This document shows positions 176 through 64,000 of a stretch of DNA of 64,000 nt, in pieces; position 1 is the stretch's first letter; each line of letters begins with the position of its first letter. The position numbers and the translations under genes were made by a program. The stretch covers positions 6,572,001 through 6,636,000 of the forward strand of contig JAGIQG010000014.1 of NCBI GenBank assembly GCA_024679065.1. The letters are read 5' to 3'. Origin of the DNA: Sphyrna mokarran. Its lineage: Eukaryota. The notes beneath the pieces are model-generated. The model did no database searches. It was not told the DNA's origin and saw nothing but the letters and a program-made list of their open reading frames with translations.

Positions 176-1829
176 TTCGTGATCGCGTAGAATGGGAATG
201 AGTTACAGAGATATGACGCATAGCAAGTTTTGGTATCACAATATCATTATCTTGTGTTGCGTGTGAACTGACGTTCAGGATTAAAACATCCCGGGCATAT
301 CCCTGCTCATGACCCGTGAAAGAAATACAATGGTTACATTGGCTCATTTCAGAAGACTGAGAAAATTACCAAAATACCTCGATGACAATCGACTCAGCCG
401 CAAAATCCAAAGACATATATTGATTAAATTTCCCGTCATTGAGTACTGTTACAGAAAATTTGACTCTAAGCTATATATTTATTTCACAGCTCAGAACATT
501 AAGCTGTACGTTATCTCTGGGAAACCTAGCAAAAATGCTATGATCATGGAACAGTGAAGAGAATTTCGAAGAGATAAACATTGGCATATCAAACCGGCTT
601 GAAATGAACATTTCCCGTCGCAGTAGAGCGAAATGGGAGTTATCGCATTGTCCAGTTTATAGGCACCACATCTGACGTCCAACGACACGAACATTCATGA
701 GAATCACTTGACTTCTATGTCACAACTGGACGTTACAGGAAAAAAGAAATGACTATGACGTGTATTACGTTAAAAAAAACATTATATTATCATAAAGGAT
801 TCGATCTGTGCTGCAGATATGACAGAATTTGAGGTTGATTTTGTGACAGTTCCGCAGTGATAATGCTGACTCCAGTGGACGCACCGTGAATCTGGATCCA
901 CTATTTGAGAATGGCCACCGTACTGCAACCCTGTGTCATCATGCTGATTACAATATATGTGCTTTGAATATGGGTTGGACTTCTTTGTCAGGCGGAAAGA
1001 ATAAACGAAGCTGACCAGAGCTCAGCATCACGACTCAATACATCTCCTTAATCCAAGCATTTTAAATAGAATGAAGCATTCCGATTGTATGCGAGCGTGA
1101 AAATGCAAGTACGAGTGCATCAATCCGCTTCGTGAGCATTGATATGATTTTTTTGCCCATTCATTTCTTGCTTTGGAATTTACACAAACGGTTACAAGAC
1201 ATATATTACAGACATACCTCACGGTTATTATTTCGGGCTCCGTAACTACGTATGCTAAGGTTTCTTTGAATATTACGAACAACTCATAGTTACACATCAC
1301 CCTCGTTCATTCTTCGCCGACTTCCATCGAGTTGTGTATAACATAATTATATGATTCTTAAAATTCACTTCATTTAATACCAATTTGTGTTCTCTATTCC
1401 AACATCGATTATATGTCTCAGTATATTAGAATTCCACTGCTAAACAGATCAACTTGTTTGTGGAAAAATAGTTTTATTTTTGAATAATATAACTGTAATT
1501 CGCCCGATTGTTGTGTTATAAATATCACTTTTCACCTTTATCGTTTCTGTCAATTAAAATTGTGTTTTACAAATCACTTATTCTCAAATTTATCAAACAA
1601 TTCTATTTCTCTTTCTGAAGTTGATGTGTGAGCATCAAATTCTATACCTTGAAACAAATTGCATTTTAATCCTGAAACTGACCCCAATGCGTGGTCTGCT
1701 GTAGACTCTGTTGATTTAATATGACTATTCTTCACTGTTTAATCGGAAAATGTGAACGTTGAAAAAAATGACGAAAAACAATAGTCATCATCCTGACAAG
1801 TTTTAGGGTAGTTCGTTTTTGCAGTTGCC

Positions 1830-2165
1830 TGAGTAGTATTATAATCCAGTAGTAACAATTCAGGCATCTAACGTATATTCTGGAGTTCTGTGTGCGGATG
1901 CCACCAGATTGTAGAATTACAAACCAATATTGTTTTTTTCAAAAATCCAGTGATCATCACGAATGGATTGTCATAACTACCTGTCTGCTTCACTGAAGCC
2001 AAAAGGGAAAGAAACATGCCACCCTCACCCACTATCGTCTGCATGACAGTCCAGACATACTGCAATCTATTTGACAATTAACTGTTCTCTGAAGAACAAT
2101 TTGGGATTAATAGCAAATTATGATTTCTACCAGCAGCGTCCCCAAGCCATAACTGAACAAAAAAA
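1830..2165 (+). mobile_element. Degenerate tRNA-derived SINE, SacSINE1/DeuSINE-like (mirror ~63361-63696)
   Basis: ggattgtcataactacctgtctgcttcact...agggaaagaaacatgcc...tccagacatactgcaat...taactgttctctgaa with an A-rich end. Related relics at ~3348-3560 and ~22993-23200. Family from memory. Confidence 0.5.
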
Positions 2166-4329
2166 GGATGCTCACCTTCAAATCAGCCCCAAACTCTCCT
2201 CAATTACATCATGTCCGCCTTTCCAATGACGTCATGCACCGTCCACCATCAACCCAGAGAAGAGAAAACTAGAGTTCACAAAAGTATGCAAATTTATTGC
2301 TGTTGAACTACTTTAGTGTGTTTTTTTTCTAAAAAAAGCATGACTGTAATTGTTGAATGGAAGTCGACACTTACCTCTCCTGCGGATGCCAGGATGAATG
2401 TTCTTTATTCTGGGCTGTGTCTTGAAGTAGCCTCTGTGAAACTTACTGATGAGTAACCAGAGGGAAAAAGTCAGTCAATTACATCTCTGAAACACCGGGC
2501 AATATGTTACCGAATAAGCCAGTCCTTCAGAAGTCATGGGTTCTTTAGATCTGCAATTGAACTTTAAAACAGCAGTGTTAGTGATTATGGGGCTGTGAGA
2601 GTTTATTTTCTGGAGTGTGGGACGAATGCAGATGGGGTTATAGGGGGAGGGGCAGAGTGATTGGAGCCTGCAGGAGGTTGCAGCTGTAGGTTCAGAGGGA
2701 TTGGGGAGTGTGCGATGAGGGGTGCTGGAGAAGACCCCATCCCCAAGGATGTATGTCTGGTCGTTGGTGACCAGCAGGATGCAGGACCCCGCTCCCTCGG
2801 CTTTCTTCGAGGCTTTGTAAGTACGCCGTGTGTAGGCCCAGACTTATCGGGCGTTTCCCTGGTCTCTGGAAACCGCTCTGGAGGAAAACCCGGTTCTGGG
2901 GCTGCGGCGCCTGCTGCTTCTCACACGTGGACAGCTGTTCCGCTTCAGTTCCATATCGGGTGTCTCCAGGGTGTCTTTCAAATCAGAAAGATATGGCACT
3001 CAAGCAATATTGGAGAGTTGAAAACACCGAGAATGAAGTTTTAGAAACAAGTGAGAAGAGTAAAAAAAAAGAACACATGCTGGACACAGCTTGCAAGAAG
3101 CCGCCTCGCTCCAGCGCCATCTTGGAAGATAGATATGAATATGGAATACTGTATTTTAAAATAGGTTGCATACTAATACTGATACTGACCGTTGATGCAG
3201 TATCCGTCGTGGTCATTGATGATTTAAAGTGTCAATTATTTGCTACTTAGTTTGAAAAGTTGAAGGAAGAAGGATATCCAAACAGAAAAAGAAAATCAAT
3301 AAACATGCTATTGCCAAGATTCAATGTACTCCAGTTTGCCGTTGACTTGTGGCATTTTAATCCCGAGATAGCATTCCAGATCGTATAGTGTGATTTCTGG
3401 TTTAGAATACCTTCATATTGTGGGATTTGGAAACAATATTATTTCAAAATCTCTGTGATGACCATGAGTGGATTGTCGTACATAGCTTTCTCGTTCATGT
3501 ATGCCTGTTAGATAGTAAAAAAAAACATGTTACCCCGACCTGTTGGAGTCTCTATTCCAAGCCAGGACAACCTAATGGAATGCAAAATGCGCTCTCAGGA
3601 ATGATATGAGATGAACACGAAATTATATCGAGGCCCACAGTTTCCCATCCCAGTAATGGATACAAAGTGTTGTCCATAGTCTGTTTAATGAATCTTCGTA
3701 TGTATATAACACGAGAATATAACAGTTGGGGTTGATGCATGTACTCACTCTTCCTGATATTTTCTTTTTGTAGCGATGTTGCACATATGACTGAGCATAT
3801 TTTTGAGCTAATGTTTAGGACATCACCATGCAAATTACATGTTGGTTGCTTCGTAGTTATATACGCACAGCGTCTTTGAAGGTCAACCGGTGTGCAACAT
3901 TGAACTAGATGCATTGATTAATTTTCTGGCAAGGTCTTTCAAATGGAGGGGTCCCAGTTGTTTGACTGGTATCTGCTCTGCATTTCCCCTTTCATTGCTG
4001 CAGCTGCCAAACTATATCAGAAATTACTGCCGCTCAGTAACGTAAAGATACAGCAATCTCCTGGAGGAAGCTACTAATCAACTGGTTAAACTGCACATTT
4101 TGACATTCTCCAGATTCTCAATCGACATCAGATCCATGCATGTTAACGAATTCTGAACAGGTGATTTCAGCTAAGACAAGGTAGAACAGAATACTTAAAC
4201 GCGCAGTACATGGATGAATTTGCGATTTGGAGACAAATAACAAGGATGGAATGATCAGTGTCATTTTAAACTCTTTCATTTGGCACTAAACTAGGGGGTC
4301 GCATGAAGCATCAGGTGGCAGCTGCCATG

Positions 4330-4945
4330 TACATTTAACATTTATGGTGCGGAACCTGTGATGTAAGTCACAATTTGTAATGCAAAAATATACCTGTGTT
4401 GTTAGTCACGTCCTGTCGTGTAAGGTACTATCCGCGGTGCAAGGCAGCATTTTTCGTTGTGAGGCTATGCTAGTTATGTAAACATATGGTATAATGCAAA
4501 CCTGCAATGAAAGCCTCTTTCTGCAGTGAAGGGAATTCCTGTGAAGAAGGGAATACATTGCGGTATGGCAATATCTAAGGTGAAAGCATTCCCCGCGGTC
4601 TAAGACAGTAACTTGTTTTTGTAATACAGCAGCTACGGTGTAAAGCAGTCCTTTCCGTTTCTAATGGTACCTGTGTTATAATCCCGATCAGAAATTTCAA
4701 GGTGTTGTATTGAAGACAGTATCCACGTTGGAAGGCAGCAGATGTAGTGTAAGGCAATACCTGCACTACGTGGACTCGTGAATGGTGCAACGCAGTACCT
4801 TTGGAGCAATCAGTACCTGCGGTGTAAAGATGTATCGTAGAACTTACGATGAAAGGAAATAGCTTTGGTGTAAGAGAACACTTATAGTGTAACAGCAACT
4901 GCAGTGCACGCCAGTACTTGCGGTTTCCGGTGGTACAATGTGTTG
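4330..4945. repeat. Degenerate ~19-bp minisatellite (consensus ~taaggcagtacctgyggtg); mirror ~60580-61195
   Basis: aaggcag / tacctg recur at ~19-nt spacing. Confidence 0.75.
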
Positions 4946-5784
4946 TGATCCAGGTCAGAAATTTGAATGCATTTAATGAAGTCTGCCTGAACCATGTGTT
5001 TTGCACATTGAATTTAGCGCTCGTAAGCGTGAGATGTTTCACTCCAAGTATGACTTAAATGACCTACTGGTGAGCTTGTGTCTCACAAACTTAATTTTAG
5101 AAAGAAGATTAGCAAATTAATTTTTAGCAATTACCAACAAGAAAACAAACAACCAAGGTATTGTATAAACCTTAACAGCTCAATGTACTGTACAAATACA
5201 ACATGCTTACGGACATACGTCCCTACTTTCGATTTTGCAAAAAAAATATGAATGCCCAAGGAGTTTTCAGCTCTGCAAGACCTGTCGTTGTTAGTTATTT
5301 GGATGGAGAAAAGAAACACCCGCTTCTCCATTCTGGAACTCACAGCCCCTCGAAGTGGAGATAGTGCCATTGCTTTTCTCCAGCTGGCAAACCAACAACA
5401 GCAAAACGTTCACTCCAGAAAAGTAAGAAACAGTATTTCAAACTAACTAGCAGAATTGTTTGAGAGAGGAGAGGGAAAATCCAGCCTCGAGTCCAGGCAA
5501 CTTCGGAATAACCAGCAAACAAAAGTAAATGTGAAAGAATCTTGCGACTTGTCCAACGTGTTTGCGCAGCAATTCCAAAATTGCCAAAAAAAAAACTCCA
5601 AGAGAATGCAGTCGGTCCAGATTAAAAATAAACAAAACGCAATTTAACTATTTGAGGAGCGTTCAACTGACAGTTAGTCAGGCTGCTCGATGCTTGTTTA
5701 TTATGTTAGAAATAACACGGTTAAATTTACGTTTCTTAAAGCACATCTTGGAAGTGTAAGCCACTACTTGAGGTCATTAGCAGT

Positions 5785-6906
5785 AGCTGGCGCAAAGTGG
5801 TGCCTGTGGTGTAATACAGAATTTTTGGTTTAAGTTACCACGTGCGCTTAAGACAGTAGCCGCGATGCAAGGGATCATCTGTAGCCTTAGGCAGTACTTG
5901 TGGGGCTATGCAGTGCTTGCAGTACAGGGCAGTGCATGTGCAGTAAGACAGCGCCTACGGTATCAGGAAGTAGGTCCAATATTATGCAGCATCTGTGGTG
6001 TAAGGCAGTCCCTGTGGTTAAGATATCAACTGTGGTGGAAGACAGCGCCTGTATGCAAAAATGGAACTGAGGTGTTAGGCATTATCTGTGGTGCAAGGCA
6101 ATTGCGTGTAGTGAAGGTAGTTCCTGCACTGAAGAAAGTACCTGCGTGTATGACATGACTTGTGGTAAAAGGCGACAGCTGTAGCATAAGGCAGTAACTC
6201 AATGTAAGTTCTTGGATGCTGTGCCACTCAGTACCATTGATGTAAGACACTAACTTTGTGTAATGGAGCGTCTGATGTGAAGGCAGTTTCTGTAGCCGAA
6301 GGCAATACCTGTTGTGCAAAGCAGTACCTCCGGTCTGAGGGATTCCCCACCTGCAGTGAAGGCAGTAGTTCTGGTGAAGGCAGTACCTACAGTGTCAAAC
6401 ATGCACGTAATTACCTATGGTGTAAGGCATAACTTGTGACGTACGTTAGCAATGTTGGTCTATAACAGACTCTGCTGCCTTAAAACAGGACCTGCACTGT
6501 AAATAAGTGGATTTGCTATATGGTAATACCCTGGTGCGATGCCTTTCATGTGGTGTAAGACATTGCCGGAGCTGAAGTTGTATCCCCGCAGTGTAAGGCA
6601 GTACCCTTGTTAGAAAGTGGTAGTGCAGTTCTTGCAGTAAAGACAATGCACGCATTGAAAGGCAGTACATGCGATATAACGCAGTACGTGTGCTTTGAGG
6701 ATGTTCCTGTGGTGGAAGGCATGCTATTGCTGCAACGCAGTGCCGGCAATGTAAGGAAGTACTTGCGGTGTAAGGCAGTGTTTACAGTACAAGCTGGTAC
6801 CCGTGGCGTTATAAAGTAGCTTTAGTTTAAGTTTTGTGGTGTAATGCAACATCTGCGGTTCCACGTAATACTTGCAGTTTGCATAGACACTGCGGTTTTA
6901 AGGCAG
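5785..6906. repeat. Degenerate ~19-bp minisatellite; mirror ~58619-59740
   Basis: e.g. aaggcagtttctgtagccg aaggcaatacctgttgtgc aaagcagtacctccggtct from ~6280. Confidence 0.85.
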
Positions 6907-7134
6907 TGTGAGTTAGTGTCTTTTGTAGTACCTTATAAGCTACAATATTAACAAAGGCATCCAAATAATGCCACAAATATCTTGAAAACACACAATGCAG
7001 AATCAGTGTAATTTAGATTTTATTAAGAAAAATGTTATTACTAGGCTTATTTTTGTTTCCAAAGTTTAACCTTCAAAGTAAAAATATGAATAGAATCTGA
7101 GATGATAAACTAACCAATGCAACAATAAAAAGAA

Positions 7135-7312
7135 CTGTAAGCAGAAGTGCTGGGGACACAAGTCAGTTAGCACCTGTGAAGCAAACAAGATGATCAATGT
7201 TTTAAACTTGTACATGTCTTTTAGTTCTGAAGCAGGATACAAGTCCAAGGTATCAATGGTTTACTCAGCAGATGCTGACTGGCCTGCTGTGTATTTCCAT
7301 TACTTCCTGCTG
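7135..7312. mobile_element. Degenerate short element with inverted ends
   Basis: agaagtgctgggg...gtcagttagcacctg pairs imperfectly with cagatgctgactggcctgctgtgtatttcc; resembles a common shark non-autonomous repeat. Confidence 0.4.
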
Positions 7313-9065
7313 CATAACTAATGTTTCACTGAGTCTCATTAAAAAACCGACCTTAGATTCCAATAAAATATAGCATTTATCACTGAATGTTAATGAGACC
7401 AAAATTAGTCTCTTCGTGCTCTAAATGTTAACTTACAATGCTCCAAGCTCTTTGACATTAGTGCCGACTTGGTGGGTGTATTACATGGAATTGAAGAGGA
7501 GAGTGTGCTGGCTAAGTTTGTAGAACAAAAATGGCACTTTTTCTTTAAATCCTTTAAAATATGTAATTATAGTCTTAGAACAGCATTGTGTAATCATTTG
7601 TTCATAATAGTCATTTAGGAAAATGTAAAAAAAGTAGTGGTTCACTGCTATTGTAGGTTTTTTGGTTTGATTGATGGTTAAGAGAGCGAATACTAAGTAA
7701 CAATGAGTGCTTCTCCATGAAAGAGAACATATTACAGGCCACTCATGTACACATCTAAACATGTTTCAGGGCAAACTTGCCAGAGTCCTTGAAACAGATC
7801 ACTTTCACTGCCATTCCTCCACTTCTTAATCAGAGCCTGACTGTCAAAAACTGCAAAGCAAGATTGAAAGTTAGGACGTGAAAAAGCATCTATGTGAATT
7901 TAAAGCTGCATCTGTTTAAGTTGGTGCACAGTTCCACAAAGACTAGTAATTCTTTGATACTTTCCTGCTTTTTTTCTCGTCAAAGCCTAGATGCTGAATA
8001 CTGGCAAGACTAATTAACTGACCTGGCTGCCAATCTGATAGTGGTCTCTGATGATATTTACATAAACATACTTATCAGCATGTGATAAAAACAGCATTCA
8101 GGAGGAGGAGGTATAGCATGCATTACTTTGTTTGCCCCCTCCATCCATACTTTAATCATCTATGTTAGGCCAGAGATCAAGTCTGAAACTTCTCTGGTCC
8201 AACAGACTGAGAACTAATTTGTGAAAACTATCCTGCTGGACTAGCTTCAAGGTGGTGATTATTACACTTAATGAAAGAGATTATTCACTTGGAAGTGATT
8301 ATAACTGAGCTTTACACTGTGTTGGCATCTTGCTAGAGCCTTGGACTCTTGGCATCCAGGTTAAGTAGAGAAGACAAAAAACTCTGGTCTCATTCAAAAT
8401 GGATTTTAATGCTGGCATATTTGGAGGATAATATTGGAGATCTGAATTCAAGTCTCTTACCTCCATTTATTTTTATGATGGAGTATTGAACTGTATAAAT
8501 AGCTGTGAAAAGTAAATTAAATCTATTGATTCTCTTTGGCATGGGGTCTGGTTTAATGTCTGTTTCGTTTTGAGTGTGTAAGAAACAGTTGTAATGCTTA
8601 AGTGATTCGAGTCTATGCTTGTAGATAAAGTGGATAGTGCACTATTCCCTTTAATGTATTTCCATGAATAATGAATAATTTTATGCCCTTTTGAACACGA
8701 CTATCATTCCTTTTCATTTACAGTGAAAAGAAATTTAAATTAGCCCCTGTAAAACTACATACTGTAAATGCATAGCAGGAATATTTTATCACTTAACAAG
8801 AGTGCAGTACAAACTTCAAGTCAATTTGTGATGTAGAACAATGTATTGGTAATGACCTCTCCTTAGTATACTAAAATTGACTTGTATTTTTCAGTCTCAA
8901 AATGATTGGTTATTGTAGCTGTTGATAGTTTGTCTTTGCTTGTGCTCCCCTGCTGACTTCTGCAAAACAAACGTTCAGAAACAGGATGTAGTTACTAATC
9001 AAAGGGAGTATGGACTGGCTCTATCTGCATTTTAGTGTTGACATGGATTGGTTTAGGTGAGCATC

Positions 9066-9500
9066 TGGTACGGAGGGCAGGTCTTATGAAGAGAGGCTGA
9101 GCGATTTGAGGTTGTTTTCGTTAGAAAGGAGGCGGCTAAGAGGGGACCTAATCGAAACATATAAGATGATTAGAGGTTTAGATAGGTGGACAGTGATAGC
9201 CTTTTTCCTAGGATGGAGAAAGCTAGCACGAGGGGACACAGCTTTAAATTAAGGGGTGATAGTTATAGGACGGATATCAGAGGTAGTTCTTTACCCAAAG
9301 GGTGGTTCGGGAGTGGAATGCCCTGCCTGCAGCAGTTGTAGATGCGCCAAGTTTGGTGGCGTTTAAGAGGTTAGATGATAAGTACATGGAAGAGAAGGGA
9401 ATGGTTTAGTTCGGAAGGGCATTGCTTTTTATATTGGTCGGCGCATCATCGAAGGCCGAAGGGCCTGTTCTGTGCTGTAATGTTCTATGTTCTATGTTCT
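9066..9500 (+). mobile_element. CR1 3' fragment, same family as the central CR1
   Basis: Encodes ...[34 protein letters not shown]; the 3' UTR closely matches 31384-31800 and ends in a (gttctat)n tail. Confidence 0.93.
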
Positions 9501-9504
9501 ATTA

Positions 9505-10580
9505 TACTTGCAGTGTAAGGCAGAATCTGCGGTATAAGACAGGAGTTGCAGTATCTGTAGTGTAAATCAGTAGCTCCTGTAAAAGGTAGAACCTATGGTG
9601 CAATTAAATACTTGTGGCGTAAGGCAAAATTGTGTTTGCAAGGAAGTAGCTTCCATGTAAAAAATGTTGTACAGTGCAGTGTCTGTGGTTCAAGGAAGTA
9701 TCTGTGGTTGAAGTTAGTATTATTGTGTAAGAAAATAACTGTGCTTTCAAGGAGAACCACTGGTGTGAGGCATTCACTGCGGAATTAGTCAGAGACTGTT
9801 CTGTAACCACAAAGTGTAATATAATGCAGTACCTGTGATGTGTGACAGAACCATTGGTGGAAGACATATCTCTTTCATAAGGAAGAATATTAGAGGTTTG
9901 CTGCGGTGTAACACCAGTGACGTAGGGCAAAACCGGTGGTGCAAGACAATGCTTGCAATATAATGCATACCTATTATGCATTATGCGCTACCTGACGTGT
10001 AACCCTACTGTGTATCCGTAGCGTAAGCAAGTAGTTTAAGTGTGAAACGGAATGTTTGGTGCAATGCCCCACTTAGGGTTGTAATGGAACATCCGCGGTT
10101 TCACGCAATACCTATATTGCAAGGTTGTACTGCGGTGTAAGGCACCATCTGGTACAAGACAGCGACTGCGGTTTAAGGGAGAAACTATGATGTATTGCAT
10201 TGCCTGCGATGTAAGGCTGTACGTCATGTATAAGGCAGTGTCTGAGATGTCAGACACCAGCCGCAGCATAAGGCGGTATCTGTGGTTCAAGACCGTCCCT
10301 GAAGTGCAGGGCTGTTCCTGTAGTGCAATAAAGTACCTACGGTTTAAGACATTACCAGCGGTGAGCCGATCGTGTAAGGTGGTACCCCCGGTATACGATA
10401 GTCGCTTTAGTGTGCGCAGTATCTGCTGTTGGACCTGCTGTGTAGTCAATATCTGCGGTATGAGTATTAACTAAGTGCAACGCAGTTCCTCCGGTTTAAG
10501 TCAGTAATCGGATGCAAGATGGTTCCTGAGGTAATGCAATAAATGCGATGCAAGAAAGTACCTGCGATTTATCGTGGTAC
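9505..10580. repeat. Degenerate ~19-bp minisatellite; mirror ~54940-56015
   Basis: Same unit resumes immediately after the CR1 tail. Confidence 0.8.
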
Positions 10581-10650
10581 AAAAAAGCAACAAAGAACAA
10601 AACAGCACGGGAAACAGACCCTTCGGCCCAACGAGCCCGCGCCGCCACCC
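10580..10650 (-). mobile_element. Short CR1/HE1-type tail fragment (mirror ~54870-54940)
   Basis: acagcacgggaaacagacccttcggcccaacgagccc matches the reverse complement of 33935-33972. Confidence 0.65.
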
Positions 10651-10957
10651 CGATGTTCTCACTTCTACCCGTGATCCCTGTCTATGTTTATAGATCTATG
10701 GTACATGCATCATAAAACTGTACATACATGCAGCGTAATTAGGACTGATGCAAACATATTTTAATCCACTATTAGAAATACATCATTCATGTTCTCACTG
10801 ACTGAGAGTAAGCCGTTACAGAAGAAAACACCAACAGTCAACGGCGGATAGCAATAGGAGGCAGAAGATACAACAGAGTGGAACAATGCTTCTGATATCC
10901 TTTATTTAAAGAGACCCTTTTTGTGGCAAGAAGGCCGGCATTTAAACGTGTACTTCA

Positions 10958-43149: not shown

Positions 43150-43153
<4 letters not shown>

Positions 43154-45888: not shown

Positions 45889-45989
45889 ATACACGAGTAG
45901 CGAGTGAGTCAACTGTCCCTTACTTAAAATCAAATTCTCTCCATATTTCTATCATCCAAATCTCAAATGCGTGGAATAAGGGACAAAAC

Positions 45990-51200: not shown

Positions 51201-51270
51201 ATGGCCCGTCCATTAATTCTTCAGATCAAGGAACTTTTCTATCCTGTGCTAGCAGCTTTTGGTGCTCCCG
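51201..51270 (+). CDS. GPCR copy A-right, coding exon 1
   Basis: ATG at 51201, donor gtaagtc at 51271. Confidence 0.88.
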
Positions 51271-53629
51271 GTAAGTCAAGGTACCATTTGCCTCATAGTT
51301 GCGGAGTATCTCACTGCTCACTGATTCAGCAACTAATTGCGAGACGGTCATTATTGCAATGCCTTTTCTCTGTCGAGTTAAATTGTTGAATATCAGGGAA
51401 AGTCTCAACGGTTCGCATGGCCTCTGAGCTGCGGTTCAGCTCAGAAGAACGTGACACCGGGAGTTTAACTTCCCTCCCCACATTTACGAAGATCGAGCCT
51501 GATTCTCTGCCCTTCCAACAGTTCATAGATATGTATGCGATTTATTTGCAATGACAATCTGTATTCTTACCACTTTAAGATGGCAATACATCGAAATGCG
51601 CTTCTGTGGAAAGCAGAAATCATTGGATGCTATTTCAAGGGATAAAAAAAAAACTATTCAGAAGGCCGCTCCTCTCCTCAAAGATGCAAATCAGTTTTCC
51701 GTTCCGCTATTTCCCGTTCTGTGCCCGACAGTTCCCTTACGCTGGTGATAAAAAGTAGAATCCATCAGTTTCGTACTTATTTCCATTTCAAAATTTATTT
51801 CAATTTTGTCATCTCACTGATTTATTTGAAATGCTAATATGTACTCCTCATGTCGAATGCAGCTCTTGAGATACTCCTCCAAGTAAATTTAAAACACTAA
51901 ATTCAATCGATTGCTCTACCGTGCATCCGGCGCATCACCTGACACAAGCCTCGTGGTAGATGGATTTAGTTGTCAAAAGTGCAGCGAAGGAAATTACTGT
52001 ATAGAAATGAATCAGTTGCTTGGTCGCATTTATTTTATTAATTTGTGATATGTGGGCATCGATGTCCTTTATTGGTCATTCCTCATTGCCCTTAGGATGA
52101 GGGTGGTGAGCTGTCTTCCTGATTCGCTGCGGTCCAAGTTATAAGTGCACCCACAGTGCTGGTAGAGGGAAAGAGAGTTCCAAGAATTTGGCACAACTAC
52201 AGTGAATGAGTGGCGATATATATTCCACTCAGTTTTGTCACTGTCTTTGGGAAAACGTTAAGATGGTGTTATTCCCATATATCTGCTGCCCGTCACTTTG
52301 TAAATGGTAGTGGTTGAGAGTTTAGTATAATTCTGTGTAAGGTGCCTGGTGAGTTCCTGTAAATGCTGCTCACCGCTGCTACAGAGCGTCTGCGGTTGAG
52401 GTCGTTATCATTTTGTGGATGATTAACAACCCAACTGCCTGCTTCGTCCTTCATTGTCTGGAGCATTTTGAATATCCTTGGAGCCGCCCTCGTGCAGGAT
52501 AGTGGAGAGTATTCCATCACTCCATCAACTTATAAATAGTGCACAGGTTTTTGAGAGACAAGGGGTCAGCTAATTATCGCATGATTTCTAACCGTTGAGT
52601 TGCTGCTCTGGACGCTATTTACTCGCTAAAATAAGCATTTGTTGAGATTTGAAGCAAACGTAGGGAATGCTTAAAAAAACAATGACTGTTTTCTCCCTCA
52701 ACGGAAGCTGCCAGCCCTGCTGAGATTTGTTAAACTTTATTTTCATATCGCTCGTTCCGTTCAGATTGTGTTTGTGGTTGATGCTAATAGTTGCAGATTC
52801 CGTGATGGCATCGAATGTAGAGGGGAAATGCTTAGATTATGTATTGTTATAGGCGGTCATTGCCTGAAACGTGCGTGACACAACCATCATTTGGAACTTG
52901 TCAGCCCAAACTTGGATGTTGTCCTGATCTTGCTGCAATTGGACATGGGCTGTCTTGGTATCTGAAGATTCGCGTGCGATATTATATATTGTAGAGTCAT
53001 GAATGATCATTCCCACTTCTGACCGTGTAGTGGAAGAAACGTCACGATGAAGCAGCTGAAGATGTTTGAGCTTGTGACACTCACTGAGGAAATGAAAAAG
53101 AAAAACTACAATTTATTGAGGAAACCGAAATTTTCTTTCTGGGGATTTTCCCCAGGGCATGCAGAATAAGTGTGATTTCGACTTAGGGTGAATGGAGTCT
53201 CAGACCAGTGTCACGGGTGATGCTTACTGTAATTAAATCGATATGGATGCAAGGAGGCTGATCCCAGATCACCTGGTTTATTCAAATCTCCGAAATCAAA
53301 TTGATCTCATTAGAGACTTGTTTTTTTTTGTTGTCTATGGTGCTGAGGTGAACTTTCCATTAACATTCTGTCGACGGAATCCGGCGACCCTTCCCTCAAC
53401 ATGTGGAAACGATTACACTTAAATTATTGCAATGGGGAAAGCATTGAGTGCCTCAATATTGAGTTTATGGTGATCTATTTCAGTAAATATATCGCCTCTG
53501 CTCGTATGATCAACAGAATGAGTCCGTGACATTAACTGATTAAAAGTGCACCCAAACATTTCATTGAAGTATGCTTTGACTGTCATCAGACTGCGTCCGT
53601 TACTTGGTTCTTCTCTCTCGTTCTTACAG

Positions 53630-54561
53630 CGAATTTCGTGACCATTGTGATCCTCGCCAAAGGAAATTGCGGCCTTTCCAGATGTGTCTCTATCTACATG
53701 GTGGCCATGGCAATAGCAGATTTGTTGGTGATGGTCATCAATATAATTTTGTATAATCTTCTAAGAAAACGTTTTCCAAATTCATTCCTCTCCTACACTG
53801 TTGTTTGCAAATTAATGATATTTATGATTTGTAATAACCTGTATATGTCAGTATGGTTTACAGTCTCATTCACGTTTGACCGATATATTGCCATATGCAG
53901 TCAGAAGTTTAAAACAATCTATTGCACAGCGAGAACAGCGGCTGCAGTTTTAACAACAGCCACGGTCCTTATCTATTTACAGAACATGTACGTTTGGTTT
54001 GCATATAAAGAGAGAAGTACAGTAAATGGTGTTCAATGGGGTGTCCTCCCGAAACAAGATTTTTATACTTCTCACACTGGTGTGACAGTCAGGTGGTTAC
54101 AAAGTATCTTATTGAACTGGATTCCCTTCATTTCGATATTACTACTTAATTTTTTGACAATCAGACGGATTTTGTTGTCCAGCAAAGTCCGTGCGGGCCT
54201 CCGGGGTCAAAGCAGTGAGAATCAGAATGATCCAGAGATACAGAACCGAAGGAAGTCTATTATTTTATCGTTCACTATTTCTAGTAGCTTTCTACTGTTG
54301 TGGCTGACAGCAGTCATTAGTAATTTAGTCTCTGGTACAATCGTTCATAACCGGCCGGATTATACATCCCCTGAGTATATTGCCACTGAAACCGGAGCTT
54401 TCCTCCTCCATTTAAGTTCATGCACAAACAGTTGCATTTATGCAGTTACACAAGTTAAATTCAGAGAAGAGCTGAAGAAGATCGTGAAATCTCCTTGGAC
54501 AATGATTCTGATGTTGCAAAAATATGTAAAATTAAATCTAGTCTTCCTGTTCAGGCAATAG
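53630..54561 (+). CDS. GPR139/GPR142-like class A GPCR, copy A-right, coding exon 2
   Basis: Acceptor ttcttacag ends at 53629; translation identical to A-left. Confidence 0.92.
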
Positions 54562-54612
54562 TGAAGTACACGTTTAAATGCCGGCCTTCTTGCCACAAAA
54601 AGCGTCTCTTTA

Positions 54613-54618
54613 AATAAA
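54613..54618 (+). terminator. Putative polyadenylation signal of GPCR A-right (mirror 10901-10906 on -)
   Basis: AATAAA ~50 nt after the stop codon. Confidence 0.55.
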
Positions 54619-56018
54619 GGATATCAGAAGCATTGTTCCACTCTGTTGTATCTTCTGCCTCCTATTGCTATCCGCCGTTGACTGTTGGTGTTTTCTTCTG
54701 TAACGGCTTACTCTCAGTCAGTGAGAACATGAATGATGTATTTCTAATAGTGGATTAAAATATGTTTGCATCAGTCCTAATTACGCTGCATGTATGTACA
54801 GTTTTATGATGCATGTACCATAGATCTATAAACATAGACAGGGATCACGGGTAGAAGTGAGAACATCGGGGTGGCGGCGCGGGCTCGTTGGGCCGAAGGG
54901 TCTGTTTCCCGTGCTGTTTTGTTCTTTGTTGCTTTTTTGTACCACGATAAATCGCAGGTACTTTCTTGCATCGCATTTATTGCATTACCTCAGGAACCAT
55001 CTTGCATCCGATTACTGACTTAAACCGGAGGAACTGCGTTGCACTTAGTTAATACTCATACCGCAGATATTGACTACACAGCAGGTCCAACAGCAGATAC
55101 TGCGCACACTAAAGCGACTATCGTATACCGGGGGTACCACCTTACACGATCGGCTCACCGCTGGTAATGTCTTAAACCGTAGGTACTTTATTGCACTACA
55201 GGAACAGCCCTGCACTTCAGGGACGGTCTTGAACCACAGATACCGCCTTATGCTGCGGCTGGTGTCTGACATCTCAGGCACTGCCTTTTTCATGACGTAC
55301 AGCCTTACATCGCAGGCAATGCAATACATCATAGTTTCTCCCTTAAACCGCAGTCGCTGTCTTGTACCAGATGGTGCCTTACACCGCAGTACAACCTTGC
55401 AATATAGGTATTGCGTGAAACCGCGGATGTTCCATTACAACCCTAAGTGGGGCATTGCACCAAACATTCCGTTTCACACTTAAACTACTTGCTTACGCTA
55501 CGGATACACAGTAGGGTTACACGTCAGGTAGCGCATAATGCATAATAGGTATGCATTATATTGCAAGCATTGTCTTGCACCACCGGTTTTGCCCTACGCC
55601 ACTGGTGTTACACCGCAGCAAACCTCTAATATTCTTCCTTATGAAAGAGATATGTCTTCCACCAATGGTTCTGTCACACATCACAGGTACTGCATTATAT
55701 TACACTTTGTGGTTACAGAACAGTCTCTGACTAATTCCGCAGTGAATGCCTCACACCAGTGGTTCTCCTTGAAAGCACAGTTATTTTCTTACACAATAAT
55801 ACTAACTTCAACCACAGATACTTCCTTGAACCACAGACACTGCACTGTACAACATTTTTTACATGGAAGCTACTTCCTTGCAAACACAATTTTGCCTTAC
55901 GCCACAAGTATTTAATTGCACCATAGGTTCTACCTTTTACAGGAGCTACTGATTTACACTACAGATACTGCAACTCCTGTCTTATACCGCAGATTCTGCC
56001 TTACACTGCAAGTATAAT

Positions 56019-56460
56019 AGAACATAGAACATAGAACATTACAGCACAGAACAGGCCCTTCGGCCTTCGATGTTGCGCCGACCAATATAAAAAGCAATGC
56101 CCTTCCGAACTAAACCATTCCCTTCTCTTCCATATACTTATCAACTAACCTCTTAAAACGCTACCAAACTTGGCGCATCTACAACTGCTGCAGGCAGGGC
56201 ATTCCACTCCCGAACCACCCTTTGGGTAAAGAACCTACCTCTGATATCCGTCCGATAAATATCACCCCTTAATTTAAAGCTGTGTCCCCTCGTGCGTGCT
56301 AGCTTTCTCCATCCTAGGAAAAAGGCTATCGCTGTCCACCCTATCTAAACCTCTAATCATCTTATATGTTTCGATTAGGTCCCCTCTTAGCCGCCTCCTT
56401 TCTAACGAAAACAACCTCAAATCGCTCAGCCTCTCTTCATAAGACCTGCCCTCCGTACCA
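56019..56460 (-). mobile_element. CR1 3' fragment (mirror of 9066-9500)
   Basis: (agaacat)n tail at 56019 followed by the reverse-complemented CR1 end. Confidence 0.93.
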
Positions 56461-59400
56461 GATGCTCACCTAAACCAATCCATGTCAACACTAAAATGCA
56501 GATAGAGCCAGTCCATACTCCCTTTGATTAGTAACTACATCCTGTTTCTGAACGTTTGTTTTGCAGAAGTCAGCAGGGGAGCACAAGCAAAGACAAACTA
56601 TCAACAGCTACAATAACCAATCATTTTGAGACTGAAAAATACAAGTCAATTTTAGTATACTAAGGAGAGGTCATTACCAATACATTGTTCTACATCACAA
56701 ATTGACTTGAAGTTTGTACTGCACTCTTGTTAAGTGATAAAATATTCCTGCTATGCATTTACAGTATGTAGTTTTACAGGGGCTAATTTAAATTTCTTTT
56801 CACTGTAAATGAAAAGGAATGATAGTCGTGTTCAAAAGGGCATAAAATTATTCATTATTCATGGAAATACATTAAAGGGAATAGTGCACTATCCACTTTA
56901 TCTACAAGCATAGACTCGAATCACTTAAGCATTACAACTGTTTCTTACACACTCAAAACGAAACAGACATTAAACCAGACCCCATGCCAAAGAGAATCAA
57001 TAGATTTAATTTACTTTTCACAGCTATTTATACAGTTCAATACTCCATCATAAAAATAAATGGAGGTAAGAGACTTGAATTCAGATCTCCAATATTATCT
57101 TCCAAATATGCCAGCATTAAAATCCATTTTGAATGAGACCAGAGTTTTTGTCTTCACTACTTAACCTGGATGCCAAGAGTCCAAGGCTCTAGCAAGATGC
57201 CAACACAGTGTAAAGCTCAGTTATAATCACTTCCAAGTGAATAATCTCTTTCATTAAGTGTAATAATCACCACCTTGAAGCTAGTCCAGCAGGATAGTTT
57301 TCACAAATTAGTTCTCAGTCTGTTGGACCAGAGAAGTTTCAGACTTGATCTCTGGCCTAACATAGATGATTAAAGTATGGATGGAGGGGGCAAACAAAGT
57401 AATGCATGCTATACCTCCTCCTCCTGAATGCTGTTTTTATCACATGCTGATAAGTATGTTTATGTAAATATCATCAGAGACCACTATCAGATTGGCAGCC
57501 AGGTCAGTTAATTAGTCTTGCCAGTATTCAGCATCTAGGCTTTGACGAGAAAAAAAGCAGGAAAGTATCAAAGAATTACTAGTCTTTGTGGAACTGTGCA
57601 CCAACTTAAACAGATGCAGCTTTAAATTCACATAGATGCTTTTTCACGTCCTAACTTTCAATCTTGCTTTGCAGTTTTTGACAGTCAGGCTCTGATTAAG
57701 AAGTGGAGGAATGGCAGTGAAAGTGATCTGTTTCAAGGACTCTGGCAAGTTTGCCCTGAAACATGTTTAGATGTGTACATGAGTGGCCTGTAATATGTTC
57801 TCTTTCATGGAGAAGCACTCATTGTTACTTAGTATTCGCTCTCTTAACCATCAATCAAACCAAAAAACCTACAATAGCAGTGAACCACTACTTTTTTTAC
57901 ATTTTCCTAAATGACTATTATGAACAAATGATTACACAATGCTGTTCTAAGACTATAATTACATATTTTAAAGGATTTAAAGAAAAAGTGCCATTTTTGT
58001 TCTACAAACTTAGCCAGCACACTCTCCTCTTCAATTCCATGTAATACACCCACCAAGTCGGCACTAATGTCAAAGAGCTTGGAGCATTGTAAGTTAACAT
58101 TTAGAGCACGAAGAGACTAATTTTGGTCTCATTAACATTCAGTGATAAATGCTATATTTTATTGGAATCTAAGGTCGGTTTTTTAATGAGACTCAGTGAA
58201 ACATTAGTTATGCAGCAGGAAGTAATGGAAATACACAGCAGGCCAGTCAGCATCTGCTGAGTAAACCATTGATACCTTGGACTTGTATCCTGCTTCAGAA
58301 CTAAAAGACATGTACAAGTTTAAAACATTGATCATCTTGTTTGCTTCACAGGTGCTAACTGACTTGTGTCCCCAGCACTTCTGCTTACAGTTCTTTTTAT
58401 TGTTGCATTGGTTAGTTTATCATCTCAGATTCTATTCATATTTTTACTTTGAAGGTTAAACTTTGGAAACAAAAATAAGCCTAGTAATAACATTTTTCTT
58501 AATAAAATCTAAATTACACTGATTCTGCATTGTGTGTTTTCAAGATATTTGTGGCATTATTTGGATGCCTTTGTTAATATTGTAGCTTATAAGGTACTAC
58601 AAAAGACACTAACTCACACTGCCTTAAAACCGCAGTGTCTATGCAAACTGCAAGTATTACGTGGAACCGCAGATGTTGCATTACACCACAAAACTTAAAC
58701 TAAAGCTACTTTATAACGCCACGGGTACCAGCTTGTACTGTAAACACTGCCTTACACCGCAAGTACTTCCTTACATTGCCGGCACTGCGTTGCAGCAATA
58801 GCATGCCTTCCACCACAGGAACATCCTCAAAGCACACGTACTGCGTTATATCGCATGTACTGCCTTTCAATGCGTGCATTGTCTTTACTGCAAGAACTGC
58901 ACTACCACTTTCTAACAAGGGTACTGCCTTACACTGCGGGGATACAACTTCAGCTCCGGCAATGTCTTACACCACATGAAAGGCATCGCACCAGGGTATT
59001 ACCATATAGCAAATCCACTTATTTACAGTGCAGGTCCTGTTTTAAGGCAGCAGAGTCTGTTATAGACCAACATTGCTAACGTACGTCACAAGTTATGCCT
59101 TACACCATAGGTAATTACGTGCATGTTTGACACTGTAGGTACTGCCTTCACCAGAACTACTGCCTTCACTGCAGGTGGGGAATCCCTCAGACCGGAGGTA
59201 CTGCTTTGCACAACAGGTATTGCCTTCGGCTACAGAAACTGCCTTCACATCAGACGCTCCATTACACAAAGTTAGTGTCTTACATCAATGGTACTGAGTG
59301 GCACAGCATCCAAGAACTTACATTGAGTTACTGACTTATTCTACAGCTGTCGCCTTTTACCACAAGTCATGTCATACACGCAGGTACTTTCTTCAGTGCA

Positions 59401-62400
59401 GGAACTACCTTCACTACACGCAATTGCCTTGCACCACAGATAATGCCTAACACCTCAGTTCCATTTTTGCATACAGGCGCTGTCTTCCACCACAGTTGAT
59501 ATCTTAACCACAGGGACTGCCTTACACCACAGATGCTGCATAATATTGGACCTACTTCCTGATACCGTAGGCGCTGTCTTACTGCACATGCACTGCCCTG
59601 TACTGCAAGCACTGCATAGCCCCACAAGTACTGCCTAAGGCTACAGATGATCCCTTGCATCGCGGCTACTGTCTTAGGCGCACGTGGTAACTTAAACCAA
59701 AAATTCTGTATTACACCACAGGCACCACTTTGCGCCAGCTACTGCTAATGACCTCAAGTAGTGGCTTACACTTCCAAGATGTGCTTTAAGAAACGTAAAT
59801 TTAACCGTGTTATTTCTAACATAATAAACAAGCATCGAGCAGCCTGACTAACTGTCAGTTGAACGCTCCTCAAATAGTTAAATTGCGTTTTGTTTATTTT
59901 TAATCTGGACCGACTGCATTCTCTTGGAGTTTTTTTTTTTGGCAATTTTGGAATTGCTGCGCAAACACGTTGGACAAGTCGCAAGATTCTTTCACATTTA
60001 CTTTTGTTTGCTGGTTATTCCGAAGTTGCCTGGACTCGAGGCTGGATTTTCCCTCTCCTCTCTCAAACAATTCTGCTAGTTAGTTTGAAATACTGTTTCT
60101 TACTTTTCTGGAGTGAACGTTTTGCTGTTGTTGGTTTGCCAGCTGGAGAAAAGCAATGGCACTATCTCCACTTCGAGGGGCTGTGAGTTCCAGAATGGAG
60201 AAGCGGGTGTTTCTTTTCTCCATCCAAATAACTAACAACGACAGGTCTTGCAGAGCTGAAAACTCCTTGGGCATTCATATTTTTTTTGCAAAATCGAAAG
60301 TAGGGACGTATGTCCGTAAGCATGTTGTATTTGTACAGTACATTGAGCTGTTAAGGTTTATACAATACCTTGGTTGTTTGTTTTCTTGTTGGTAATTGCT
60401 AAAAATTAATTTGCTAATCTTCTTTCTAAAATTAAGTTTGTGAGACACAAGCTCACCAGTAGGTCATTTAAGTCATACTTGGAGTGAAACATCTCACGCT
60501 TACGAGCGCTAAATTCAATGTGCAAAACACATGGTTCAGGCAGACTTCATTAAATGCATTCAAATTTCTGACCTGGATCACAACACATTGTACCACCGGA
60601 AACCGCAAGTACTGGCGTGCACTGCAGTTGCTGTTACACTATAAGTGTTCTCTTACACCAAAGCTATTTCCTTTCATCGTAAGTTCTACGATACATCTTT
60701 ACACCGCAGGTACTGATTGCTCCAAAGGTACTGCGTTGCACCATTCACGAGTCCACGTAGTGCAGGTATTGCCTTACACTACATCTGCTGCCTTCCAACG
60801 TGGATACTGTCTTCAATACAACACCTTGAAATTTCTGATCGGGATTATAACACAGGTACCATTAGAAACGGAAAGGACTGCTTTACACCGTAGCTGCTGT
60901 ATTACAAAAACAAGTTACTGTCTTAGACCGCGGGGAATGCTTTCACCTTAGATATTGCCATACCGCAATGTATTCCCTTCTTCACAGGAATTCCCTTCAC
61001 TGCAGAAAGAGGCTTTCATTGCAGGTTTGCATTATACCATATGTTTACATAACTAGCATAGCCTCACAACGAAAAATGCTGCCTTGCACCGCGGATAGTA
61101 CCTTACACGACAGGACGTGACTAACAACACAGGTATATTTTTGCATTACAAATTGTGACTTACATCACAGGTTCCGCACCATAAATGTTAAATGTACATG
61201 GCAGCTGCCACCTGATGCTTCATGCGACCCCCTAGTTTAGTGCCAAATGAAAGAGTTTAAAATGACACTGATCATTCCATCCTTGTTATTTGTCTCCAAA
61301 TCGCAAATTCATCCATGTACTGCGCGTTTAAGTATTCTGTTCTACCTTGTCTTAGCTGAAATCACCTGTTCAGAATTCGTTAACATGCATGGATCTGATG
61401 TCGATTGAGAATCTGGAGAATGTCAAAATGTGCAGTTTAACCAGTTGATTAGTAGCTTCCTCCAGGAGATTGCTGTATCTTTACGTTACTGAGCGGCAGT
61501 AATTTCTGATATAGTTTGGCAGCTGCAGCAATGAAAGGGGAAATGCAGAGCAGATACCAGTCAAACAACTGGGACCCCTCCATTTGAAAGACCTTGCCAG
61601 AAAATTAATCAATGCATCTAGTTCAATGTTGCACACCGGTTGACCTTCAAAGACGCTGTGCGTATATAACTACGAAGCAACCAACATGTAATTTGCATGG
61701 TGATGTCCTAAACATTAGCTCAAAAATATGCTCAGTCATATGTGCAACATCGCTACAAAAAGAAAATATCAGGAAGAGTGAGTACATGCATCAACCCCAA
61801 CTGTTATATTCTCGTGTTATATACATACGAAGATTCATTAAACAGACTATGGACAACACTTTGTATCCATTACTGGGATGGGAAACTGTGGGCCTCGATA
61901 TAATTTCGTGTTCATCTCATATCATTCCTGAGAGCGCATTTTGCATTCCATTAGGTTGTCCTGGCTTGGAATAGAGACTCCAACAGGTCGGGGTAACATG
62001 TTTTTTTTTACTATCTAACAGGCATACATGAACGAGAAAGCTATGTACGACAATCCACTCATGGTCATCACAGAGATTTTGAAATAATATTGTTTCCAAA
62101 TCCCACAATATGAAGGTATTCTAAACCAGAAATCACACTATACGATCTGGAATGCTATCTCGGGATTAAAATGCCACAAGTCAACGGCAAACTGGAGTAC
62201 ATTGAATCTTGGCAATAGCATGTTTATTGATTTTCTTTTTCTGTTTGGATATCCTTCTTCCTTCAACTTTTCAAACTAAGTAGCAAATAATTGACACTTT
62301 AAATCATCAATGACCACGACGGATACTGCATCAACGGTCAGTATCAGTATTAGTATGCAACCTATTTTAAAATACAGTATTCCATATTCATATCTATCTT

Positions 62401-64000
62401 CCAAGATGGCGCTGGAGCGAGGCGGCTTCTTGCAAGCTGTGTCCAGCATGTGTTCTTTTTTTTTACTCTTCTCACTTGTTTCTAAAACTTCATTCTCGGT
62501 GTTTTCAACTCTCCAATATTGCTTGAGTGCCATATCTTTCTGATTTGAAAGACACCCTGGAGACACCCGATATGGAACTGAAGCGGAACAGCTGTCCACG
62601 TGTGAGAAGCAGCAGGCGCCGCAGCCCCAGAACCGGGTTTTCCTCCAGAGCGGTTTCCAGAGACCAGGGAAACGCCCGATAAGTCTGGGCCTACACACGG
62701 CGTACTTACAAAGCCTCGAAGAAAGCCGAGGGAGCGGGGTCCTGCATCCTGCTAGTCACCAACGACCAGACATACATCCTTGGGGATGGGGTCTTCTCCA
62801 GCACCCCTCATCGCACACTCCCCAATCCCTCTGAACCTACAGCTGCAACCTCCTGCAGGCTCCAATCACTCTGCCCCTCCCCCTATAACCCCATCTGCAT
62901 TCGTCCCACACTCCAGAAAATAAACTCTCACAGCCCCATAATCACTAACACTGCTGTTTTAAAGTTCAATTGCAGATCTAAAGAACCCATGACTTCTGAA
63001 GGACTGGCTTATTCGGTAACATATTGCCCGGTGTTTCAGAGATGTAATTGACTGACTTTTTCCCTCTGGTTACTCATCAGTAAGTTTCACAGAGGCTACT
63101 TCAAGACACAGCCCAGAATAAAGAACATTCATCCTGGCATCCGCAGGAGAGGTAAGTGTCGACTTCCATTCAACAATTACAGTCATGCTTTTTTTAGAAA
63201 AAAAACACACTAAAGTAGTTCAACAGCAATAAATTTGCATACTTTTGTGAACTCTAGTTTTCTCTTCTCTGGGTTGATGGTGGACGGTGCATGACGTCAT
63301 TGGAAAGGCGGACATGATGTAATTGAGGAGAGTTTGGGGCTGATTTGAAGGTGAGCATCCTTTTTTTGTTCAGTTATGGCTTGGGGACGCTGCTGGTAGA
63401 AATCATAATTTGCTATTAATCCCAAATTGTTCTTCAGAGAACAGTTAATTGTCAAATAGATTGCAGTATGTCTGGACTGTCATGCAGACGATAGTGGGTG
63501 AGGGTGGCATGTTTCTTTCCCTTTTGGCTTCAGTGAAGCAGACAGGTAGTTATGACAATCCATTCATGATGATCACTGGATTTTTGAAAAAAAAAATATT
63601 GGTTTGTAATTCTACAATCTGGTGCCATCCGCACACAGAACTCCAGAATATACGTTAGATGCCTGAATTGTTACTACTGGATTATAATACTACTCAGGCA
63701 ACTGCAAAAACGAACTACCCTAAAACTTGTCAGGATGATGACTATTGTTTTTCGTCATTTTTTTCAACGTTCACATTTTCCGATTAAACAGTGAAGAATA
63801 GTCATATTAAATCAACAGAGTCTACAGCAGACCACGCATTGGGGTCAGTTTCAGGATTAAAATGCAATTTGTTTCAAGGTATAGAATTTGATGCTCACAC
63901 ATCAACTTCAGAAAGAGAAATAGAATTGTTTGATAAATTTGAGAATAAGTGATTTGTAAAACACAATTTTAATTGACAGAAACGATAAAGGTGAAAAGTG

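What the first reader, a model, noticed from the sequence alone, without database searches (positions are those of the whole stretch)
1526..64000. Giant palindrome (arms of ~30 kb or more) carrying a head-to-head GPCR amplicon
Seen: the window folds about ~32,750 into near-identical arms. The layout is A(-) B(-) [gap, CR1] B(+) A(+), with all genes pointing outward. Known: gene-bearing palindromes maintained by arm-to-arm gene conversion are characteristic of mammalian X/Y amplicons. Inference: this may be an equivalent structure in a cartilaginous fish. The serious alternative is two haplotype contigs scaffolded in opposite orientation, because the left arm ends exactly at the N gap.
Basis: partly seen in the sequence, partly recalled or inferred. 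Interest (0 to 1): 0.8.

Follow-up and report, generated by a model that had tools for sequence, protein, structure and literature searches.

The report
Likely false palindrome at assembly gap
The mirror-image 30 kb repeat in this shark-or-ray sequence is present in the assembly, but it is most likely the two parental copies of one receptor-gene cluster stitched back-to-back across a gap, not a real chromosome palindrome.

Summary
The inverted repeat is in the sequence: 1526-31287 mirrors 34194-64000 at 99.3%. It carries two-exon, 333-aa orphan class A GPCR genes of a cartilaginous-fish family labelled 'probable GPR139'.

The details fit an assembly artefact better than a conversion-maintained amplicon:
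- A 92-N gap lies at the inner edge of the left arm.
- The last ~63 bp before the gap are raw-read-like noise (about 10 errors, P~1e-8), so the inner boundary is a contig end.
- Divergence is a step: 0.14% over the outer 17.6 kb, a flat 0.98% over the inner 12.1 kb.
- Left gene B has three frameshifts.

Both arms carry their own derived changes (52 left, 30 right), so they are two molecules, not a fold-back read. Best reading: two haplotypes of a tandem GPCR cluster scaffolded head-to-head (about 0.7). A real palindrome remains possible (about 0.2); nothing links it to a sex chromosome. Read depth, which I could not obtain, decides it.

The parts
1526..31287 (.). Left arm (left contig); 1-1525 probably mirrors sequence beyond the window's right end
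34194..64000 (.). Right arm (right contig), runs off the window
1526..19168 (.). Outer low-divergence zone (mirror ~46350-64000): 25 SNVs + 7 indels in 17.6 kb; 21 of 32 differences lie in repeats
19169..31228 (.). Inner high-divergence zone (mirror ~34253-46349): 118 SNVs + 12 indels in 12.1 kb, evenly spread
31229..31291 (.). Noisy end of the left contig: about 10 errors in 63 bp, mostly single-base slips in runs; the right arm keeps the register of the older paralogue
31292..31383 (.). 92-N gap
31384..33757 (-). 5'-truncated, dead non-LTR retrotransposon (CR1-type; clade label recalled): RT region with stops and frameshifts. Its 3' end meets the gap where the sister copy's (TGTTCTA)n tail begins
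33758..34193 (.). Rest of the spacer: a 57-bp repeat tail (33927-33983) and 34011-34193, which is homologous to the upstream flank of unit A, i.e. ordinary continuation of unit B that the left contig lacks
10958..14317 (-). GPCR gene A, left copy: exon 1 14317-14248, exon 2 11889-10958; intact, CDS identical to the right copy
26244..29619 (-). GPCR gene B, left copy, pseudogene: exon 1 29619-29550, exon 2 27164-26244; frameshifts at 27152 (+1), 26470 (-1), 26324 (-11); spliced product stops after about 65 aa
35881..39266 (+). GPCR gene B, right copy: exon 1 35881-35950, exon 2 38335-39266; intact, 333 aa, 81% identical to A
51201..54561 (+). GPCR gene A, right copy: exon 1 51201-51270, exon 2 53630-54561; intact, 333 aa
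1..16247 (-). Older tandem unit A, 74-83% identical in five blocks to unit B (21342-31287 and on to 34011): the underlying tandem GPCR array
9065..9502 (+). 3' fragment of the same retrotransposon family with its (TGTTCTA)n tail (mirror 56038-56461); hotspot of 11 arm-to-arm differences
16300..19280 (-). Degraded LINE remnant (RTE-like by recalled motifs; bounds approximate); the divergence step (17971-19169) falls inside it
   Evidence: RT profile hit iE 0.003 at 17250-17459

Best explanation
This is a heterotype false duplication. The genome most likely has one locus, a tandem array of ~15-21 kb units, each with a two-exon orphan class A GPCR (B then A). The sequenced animal carried two haplotypes. 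They differ by about 1% across unit B, where one has a dead B allele, and by about 0.1% across unit A. The assembler emitted both as contigs, starting in the divergent block and overhanging into the near-identical block. Both contigs stop within 3 kb of the same genomic point, and a proximity-based scaffolder joined those two ends across an N gap, which makes a mirror image. Shown: the gap, the noisy contig end, the step in divergence, the two independent lineages and the frameshifts. Inferred: allelism, the assembler's behaviour and the scaffolder type.
For: (1) The gap lies between the copies, and the left arm stops at it. Ko et al. list gaps between duplicated pairs and raised heterozygosity, especially at homozygous/heterozygous boundaries, as marks of false duplication (passages); the VGP paper describes the same (passages). 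(2) The left contig's last 62 bases have 15 mismatches, 12 of 15 equal to the preceding base of the right arm; about 10 events on gapped alignment, Poisson P 8e-9 against the inner-zone rate. The right arm keeps the register of the older paralogue there. So the inner boundary is a data end. (3) Homology of unit B to unit A continues in the right contig to 34011: the left copy is simply cut short. (4) Change point at 19169: 25 SNVs in 17,643 bp against 118 in 12,060 bp; 2dLL 106, maximum 19.6 in 2000 null sets. The inner zone is flat (KS p 0.55; thirds 32/44/39), as a haplotype-block edge would be, with no gradient toward the centre. (5) Outer non-repeat divergence is 11 events in 13.7 kb, 0.08%, the size of whale-shark heterozygosity, 0.074-0.083%. 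(6) Inference: the break falls where the copies are easiest to tell apart, while the 99.8% outer arms are not collapsed, the reverse of how a real palindrome should fail. (7) In my toy contact-decay model an inverted join scored best in 4 of 4 contig-length settings and head-to-head in 3 of 4. (8) Precedent: palindromes in the first Adineta vaga assembly vanished in a better one and were ascribed to erroneous scaffolding of phased haplotypes (passage).
Against: No read, depth or map data were available, so the defining half-depth test was not run. 1% divergence is more than ten times whale-shark heterozygosity; it needs an old haplotype or a paralogue-derived block, though Stanhope et al. report long high- and low-heterozygosity tracts in some sharks. 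That both contigs end within 2.9 kb of each other comes free under a real palindrome but needs a shared cause here. 92 N is not a round scaffolder gap and could be a measured one. Extra noise at the start of the right contig was only borderline (4 of 9 indels in the first 75 of 421 bp, p 0.06). Real palindromes also break assemblies, and suspected artefact palindromes in Botryllus passed depth tests. The Hi-C model is a toy that assumes cross-mapped contacts.
Confidence: 0.7

Rival explanations
1. A real palindrome with arms of 30 kb or more around a 2.9 kb spacer. It arose by inverted duplication long enough ago to reach 1% divergence. The outer 17.6 kb or more was re-homogenised recently by a long conversion or break-induced copy, and the left B decayed.
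For: Meets the formal definition used for primate X palindromes: arms >8 kb, >99% identity, spacer within 77 bp-358 kb. Both arms carry derived changes (52:30). Gene A's CDS is identical in both arms. The two contig ends lie close together. Palindrome centres are unstable and often misassembled.
Against: The centre is an unspanned gap with a noisy end. Inner divergence of 0.98% is about five times the <0.2% average within primate species. It is a single step, not a gradient. Gene B was not rescued: three frameshifts. No other gene was found in the ORFs scanned, so no sex-linked marker. 'Palindrom' occurs 0 times in the main text of the three shark genome and sex-chromosome papers checked for it.
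Confidence: 0.2
2. Mixed case. Only unit B (about 12 kb, 1% diverged, one copy dead) is really duplicated, inverted or elsewhere in the array. The near-identical outer arm is the second allele of a single-copy unit A, attached to the extra B by a misjoin or by an unequal-crossover haplotype.
For: Explains both rates at once: about 0.1% allelic, about 1% paralogous. The step lies in a LINE remnant between units A and B. The locus is already a tandem array. 9 of 10 coding SNVs in B are non-synonymous, as expected for a released duplicate.
Against: Needs two events. A null allele would show the same coding pattern, and 4 of the non-synonymous SNVs are derived on the intact copy. No misjoin scar was seen in the arm alignment at the step.
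Confidence: 0.08
3. A fold-back chimera (missed hairpin adapter, template-complement read or amplification chimera) duplicating one molecule.
For: Mirror geometry with a low-quality junction.
Against: One molecule gives arms that differ only by errors. Here, of 92 SNVs in blocks alignable to the older paralogue, 52 are derived on the left, 30 on the right and 10 unpolarised. There is also an 11-bp deletion between GAAG repeats and a 20-bp insertion, and SNVs outnumber indels about 10:1 in the inner zone. The junction is asymmetric by 2.8 kb.
Confidence: 0.02

Closest known systems
Heterotype false duplication in diploid assemblies (Ko et al. 2022, PMC9516828; VGP preprint 10.1101/2020.05.22.110833; passages read)
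   Same: Near-identical copies side by side on one scaffold, separated by a gap, at a boundary between high and low divergence, in a multigene family.
   Different: The passages read describe tandem or separate-contig placement, not inverted placement; depth, read-pair and k-mer criteria could not be tested here.
Artefact palindromes of the Adineta vaga AV13 assembly (Simion et al. 2021, PMC8494291; passages read)
   Same: Apparent palindromes attributed to erroneous scaffolding of phased haplotypes.
Primate X palindromes / amplicons (Jackson et al. 2021, PMC8327919; passages read)
   Same: Head-to-head arms >8 kb at >99% overall, short spacer, genes in the arms.
   Different: Those are single-haplotype finished sequence with <0.2% mean arm divergence and testis-biased genes. 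Here the centre is a gap, the inner 12 kb is 1% diverged, one gene copy is dead, and sex linkage and expression are unknown.
Elasmobranch 'probable G-protein coupled receptor 139' multigene family (NCBI/UniRef labels)
   Same: PF00001 7tm_1, 333 aa, 48-63% identity to the 120 listed hits; many copies per species.
   Different: No hit above 63%. A and B are each other's sisters (SH-aLRT 100, quick tree of 40 of the 120 listed hits). The match to solved GPR139 is weak (E 6e-5) and no better than to relaxin-3, PrRP or bradykinin B2 receptors, so the label is not orthology.

Membership tests
Sex-chromosome palindromic amplicon | Inverted arms >8 kb at >99% identity | tested here: met
   29.8 kb at 99.3% overall; the inner 12 kb alone is about 98.9%
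Sex-chromosome palindromic amplicon | Both arms and spacer on one molecule (contiguous single-haplotype sequence) | not testable with these tools
   The assembly has a gap and a noisy end at the centre; no reads available
Sex-chromosome palindromic amplicon | Arm divergence held low (<0.2% on average) by ongoing conversion | tested here: not met
   Outer 0.14%, inner 0.98%, single step; benchmark
Sex-chromosome palindromic amplicon | Intact gene copies in both arms | tested here: not met
   A intact and identical in both; left B has three frameshifts
Sex-chromosome palindromic amplicon | Location on X/Y and gonad-biased expression | not testable with these tools
   No eukaryotic genome or expression collection; only GPCR and retroelement hits in the window
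Heterotype false duplication | Gap between the duplicated pair on one scaffold | tested here: met
   92 N at 31292-31383; criterion
Heterotype false duplication | Raised divergence next to a near-identical block | tested here: met
Heterotype false duplication | Half depth, one-copy k-mers, discordant or spanning reads | not testable with these tools
   No read data
Fold-back read chimera | Arms differ only by sequencing error; symmetric junction | tested here: not met
   Derived changes on both arms, multi-base indels, 2.8 kb asymmetry
Class A (rhodopsin-like) GPCR | PF00001 above gathering cut-off | tested here: met
   58.1 and 60.4 bits against 30.5
GPR139 orthologue | Closer to GPR139 than to other class A receptors | tested here: not met
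   GPR139 structures rank 4th-5th of 10 hits, E 6e-5; exon-2 ORF only, no tree with true GPR139
CR1 LINE | RT-bearing ORF2, 5' truncation, short tandem-repeat 3' tail | tested here: met
   RVT_1 31.9 bits against 29.6; 2607 RT homologues; tail seen in the sister copy
CR1 LINE | RT falls in the CR1 clade by phylogeny against named clades | not tested
   The CR1 label is recalled; none of the 120 listed hit names says CR1

The most novel reading that the evidence does not exclude
A real gene-bearing palindrome with arms of 30 kb or more in a shark or ray, caught mid-process. One long homogenising event has reset the outer arms and gene A to near identity, while the inner 12 kb has drifted to 1% and lost one copy of gene B. 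It would sit in a large, apparently unstudied elasmobranch orphan-GPCR family. If also X- or Y-linked, it would extend palindrome biology to the oldest vertebrate sex chromosomes.
Probability: 0.2. Interest if true: 0.6.

Novelty: not a real feature. Interest (0 to 1): 0.17.

Why it matters
If false, as is most likely, it doubles the local count of a GPCR family and marks a join to purge. It would still show a deep haplotype pair with a null allele of gene B. If real, it would give a measurable case of conversion tract length and gene death inside a non-mammalian vertebrate palindrome. One search (listing only) and three shark papers showed no elasmobranch palindrome report, though inverted duplications of this size are a known kind of structure.

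Tried and rejected
- Chance: rejected.
- Fold-back chimera: rejected.
- Conversion failing gradually near a tight loop: no gradient in the inner zone.
- Left-arm differences being mere consensus errors: rejected, because 30 of 82 polarised SNVs are derived on the right. The left excess (52:30, p 0.02) leaves room for some error or relaxed selection.
- Noise on the right side of the gap: inconclusive (p 0.06).
- Indel:SNV ratio, outer against inner (7:25 and 12:118): inconclusive (p 0.064).
- Other genes: 35 of the 38 stop-to-stop ORFs of 90 aa or more in 1-26000 were scanned against Pfam; 3 weak hits, all below cut-off. No Rfam match and no tRNA.
- The careful tree did not finish; only the quick tree is used.
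- Literature on this GPCR expansion: (listings) showed no paper about it; passages of PMC6504862 mention fish and coelacanth GPR139/142 subtypes but no sharks.
- Structure prediction and the prokaryotic genome, phage and plasmid collections were not used, since they cannot bear on the question.
- No eukaryotic genome collection was available, so the orthologous locus and the sequence beyond the window stayed unchecked. No supplementary files were read; those of the shark genome papers may list this gene family.

Full report
OBSERVATION. A self-alignment of the window gives one inverted match, 1526-31287 against 64000-34194, 29,816 columns at 99.3%; the longest inverted match in 5 shuffles was 38 bp. 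A run of 92 N lies at 31292-31383, four bases past the end of the left arm. The spacer is 2.9 kb. It holds the gap, a 5'-truncated dead retrotransposon on the minus strand (31384-33757; RVT_1; 2607 RT homologues; the CR1 label is recalled) and about 430 bp more. The right arm leaves the window, so its outer boundary is unseen.

GENES. Each arm has two genes pointing outward. Both have a 70-bp first exon with a GT donor, an intron of about 2.4 kb and a 932-bp second exon, giving 333-aa proteins that are 81% identical. Both pass the Pfam 7tm_1 cut-off. A homology search with A found 465 proteins among 2447 candidates. Of the 120 listed, 119 are named and all come from sharks and rays, mostly labelled 'probable GPR139', best identity 63%. 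Against solved structures the real GPR139 scores only E 6e-5, ranking 4th-5th of 10 hits, so this is an expanded orphan family and the label is not orthology. In a quick tree with the top 40 of the 120 hits, A and B are sisters. A and B sit in older tandem units that are 74-83% identical over five blocks. Gene A's coding sequence is identical in both arms. The left copy of B has frameshifts at 27152, 26470 and 26324 and stops after about 65 codons; 9 of its 10 coding SNVs against the right copy change the amino acid.

HOW THE ARMS DIFFER. I set aside the 15 mismatched columns beyond 31228, which left 143 SNVs and 19 indels. They fall in two zones with a change point at 19169, bracketed by 17971-19169. 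The outer 17,643 bp have 25 SNVs (0.14%) and the inner 12,060 bp have 118 (0.98%); 2dLL is 106 against a maximum of 19.6 in 2000 null sets. The inner zone is flat (115 SNVs up to 31170, KS p 0.55). In the outer zone 21 of 32 differences lie in the 22% of sequence marked as repeat (p 2e-7; 10 of 21, p 0.004, without the retroelement fragment), while the inner zone shows no such bias (25 of 130, p 0.48). That repeat mask was my own, low-threshold and drawn after seeing the clustering. Outer non-repeat divergence is 11 events in 13.7 kb, 0.08%, close to whale-shark heterozygosity of 0.074-0.083% (passages). With unit A as outgroup, 92 SNVs were alignable: 52 derived on the left, 30 on the right and 10 unpolarised. 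So both arms are separate lineages, and a fold-back of one molecule is excluded.

THE JUNCTION. The last 62 bases of the left contig differ from the right arm at 15 positions, and 12 of the 15 equal the preceding right-arm base. A gapped alignment gives about 10 events, mostly single-base slips in runs (Poisson P 8e-9). The right arm keeps the register of paralogue A here. This looks like an unpolished contig end (inference). Homology between units B and A carries on in the right contig to 34011, so the left copy has no biological end point: it just stops. The right contig begins where the retroelement's (TGTTCTA)n tail starts in its sister copy at 9466-9502. A test for noise on that side was inconclusive (p 0.06). 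I cannot tell whether 92 is a measured size or a trimmed round gap.

MECHANISM. The most likely account (0.7) is two haplotypes of one tandem GPCR cluster, emitted as separate contigs and joined at their neighbouring ends. Ko et al. (PMC9516828, passages) and the VGP preprint (passages) give a gap between copies and raised heterozygosity at block boundaries as marks of such false duplications. Simion et al. (PMC8494291, passages) found that assembly palindromes in Adineta vanished in a better assembly and ascribed them to erroneous scaffolding of phased haplotypes. In my toy contact-decay model an inverted join scored best in 4 of 4 length settings and head-to-head in 3 of 4; it is illustrative only. 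I also infer that a real palindrome with a 2.9 kb spacer and 1%-diverged inner arms should be crossed by long reads and should collapse in its 99.8% outer arms, the opposite of what is seen.

AGAINST THIS READING. 1% is high for alleles in a low-diversity shark, although long tracts of high and low heterozygosity are reported in some species (PMC9826928, passages). The closeness of the two contig ends needs a shared cause. Real palindromes are often misassembled (PMC8327919, passages). Suspected artefact palindromes in Botryllus survived depth checks (PMC12448946, passages). A real palindrome keeps 0.2, a real 12-kb duplicate of B with an allelic outer arm 0.08, and a fold-back 0.02.

COMPARISON WITH KNOWN SYSTEMS. 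The assembled sequence meets the formal size and identity definition of primate X palindromes (>8 kb, >99%). It fails two functional marks tested here: arm divergence under 0.2% and intact genes in both arms. Contiguity, sex linkage and expression could not be tested. The word 'palindrom' occurs 0 times in the main text of three shark genome or sex-chromosome papers (10.1101/2025.03.13.642935, 10.1101/2022.10.17.512540, PMC13100897; term searches and passages). The bamboo-shark Y genes named in the passage read include no GPCR. Four searches (listings only) and term searches in PMC11979771 and PMC6504862 showed no paper on this GPCR expansion. The library lacks most subscription papers, and supplements were not read.

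VERDICT. This is probably a haplotype false duplication, unproven without read depth. Interest 0.17; about 0.6 if the palindrome proved real (probability 0.2).

Noticed in passing
window 35881-39266 and 51201-54561; hits: The genes belong to a large elasmobranch family auto-labelled 'probable GPR139' (465 hits; many copies per species) that is not close to true GPR139. Four literature searches showed no paper on it, and the whale-shark paper speaks of a paucity of GPCRs in cartilaginous fishes. This may be more interesting than the palindrome.
   Followed up: partly
window 26244-29619: Left B has three frameshifts and a cluster of 6 SNVs in 54 bp (26388-26441); under the allele reading it is a segregating null allele on a 1%-diverged haplotype.
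   Followed up: partly
window ~16300-19280 (-), mirror ~46240-49220: Degraded LINE remnant, RTE-like by recalled motifs, with a weak RT profile hit; the step in arm divergence falls inside it.
   Followed up: partly
window 9184-9446: 11 arm-to-arm differences in about 270 bp of a retroelement 3' fragment, against about 0.1% around it; split between the arms when compared with the central copy. Ectopic conversion or polishing noise.
   Followed up: partly
window 5754-6779, 9508-10568, 24082-24334, 25852-25977 and mirrors: Degenerate 19-bp minisatellite lying downstream of both GPCR units.
   Followed up: no
window 33927-33983 and 10589-10646: Short repeat 3' tails, 90% alike, partly matching the retroelement's 3' end; possibly a SINE sharing the LINE tail (recalled idea, not tested).
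   Followed up: no
window 31384: The contig after the gap starts exactly where the retroelement's microsatellite tail would begin, and the gap is 92 N, not a round number.
   Followed up: partly
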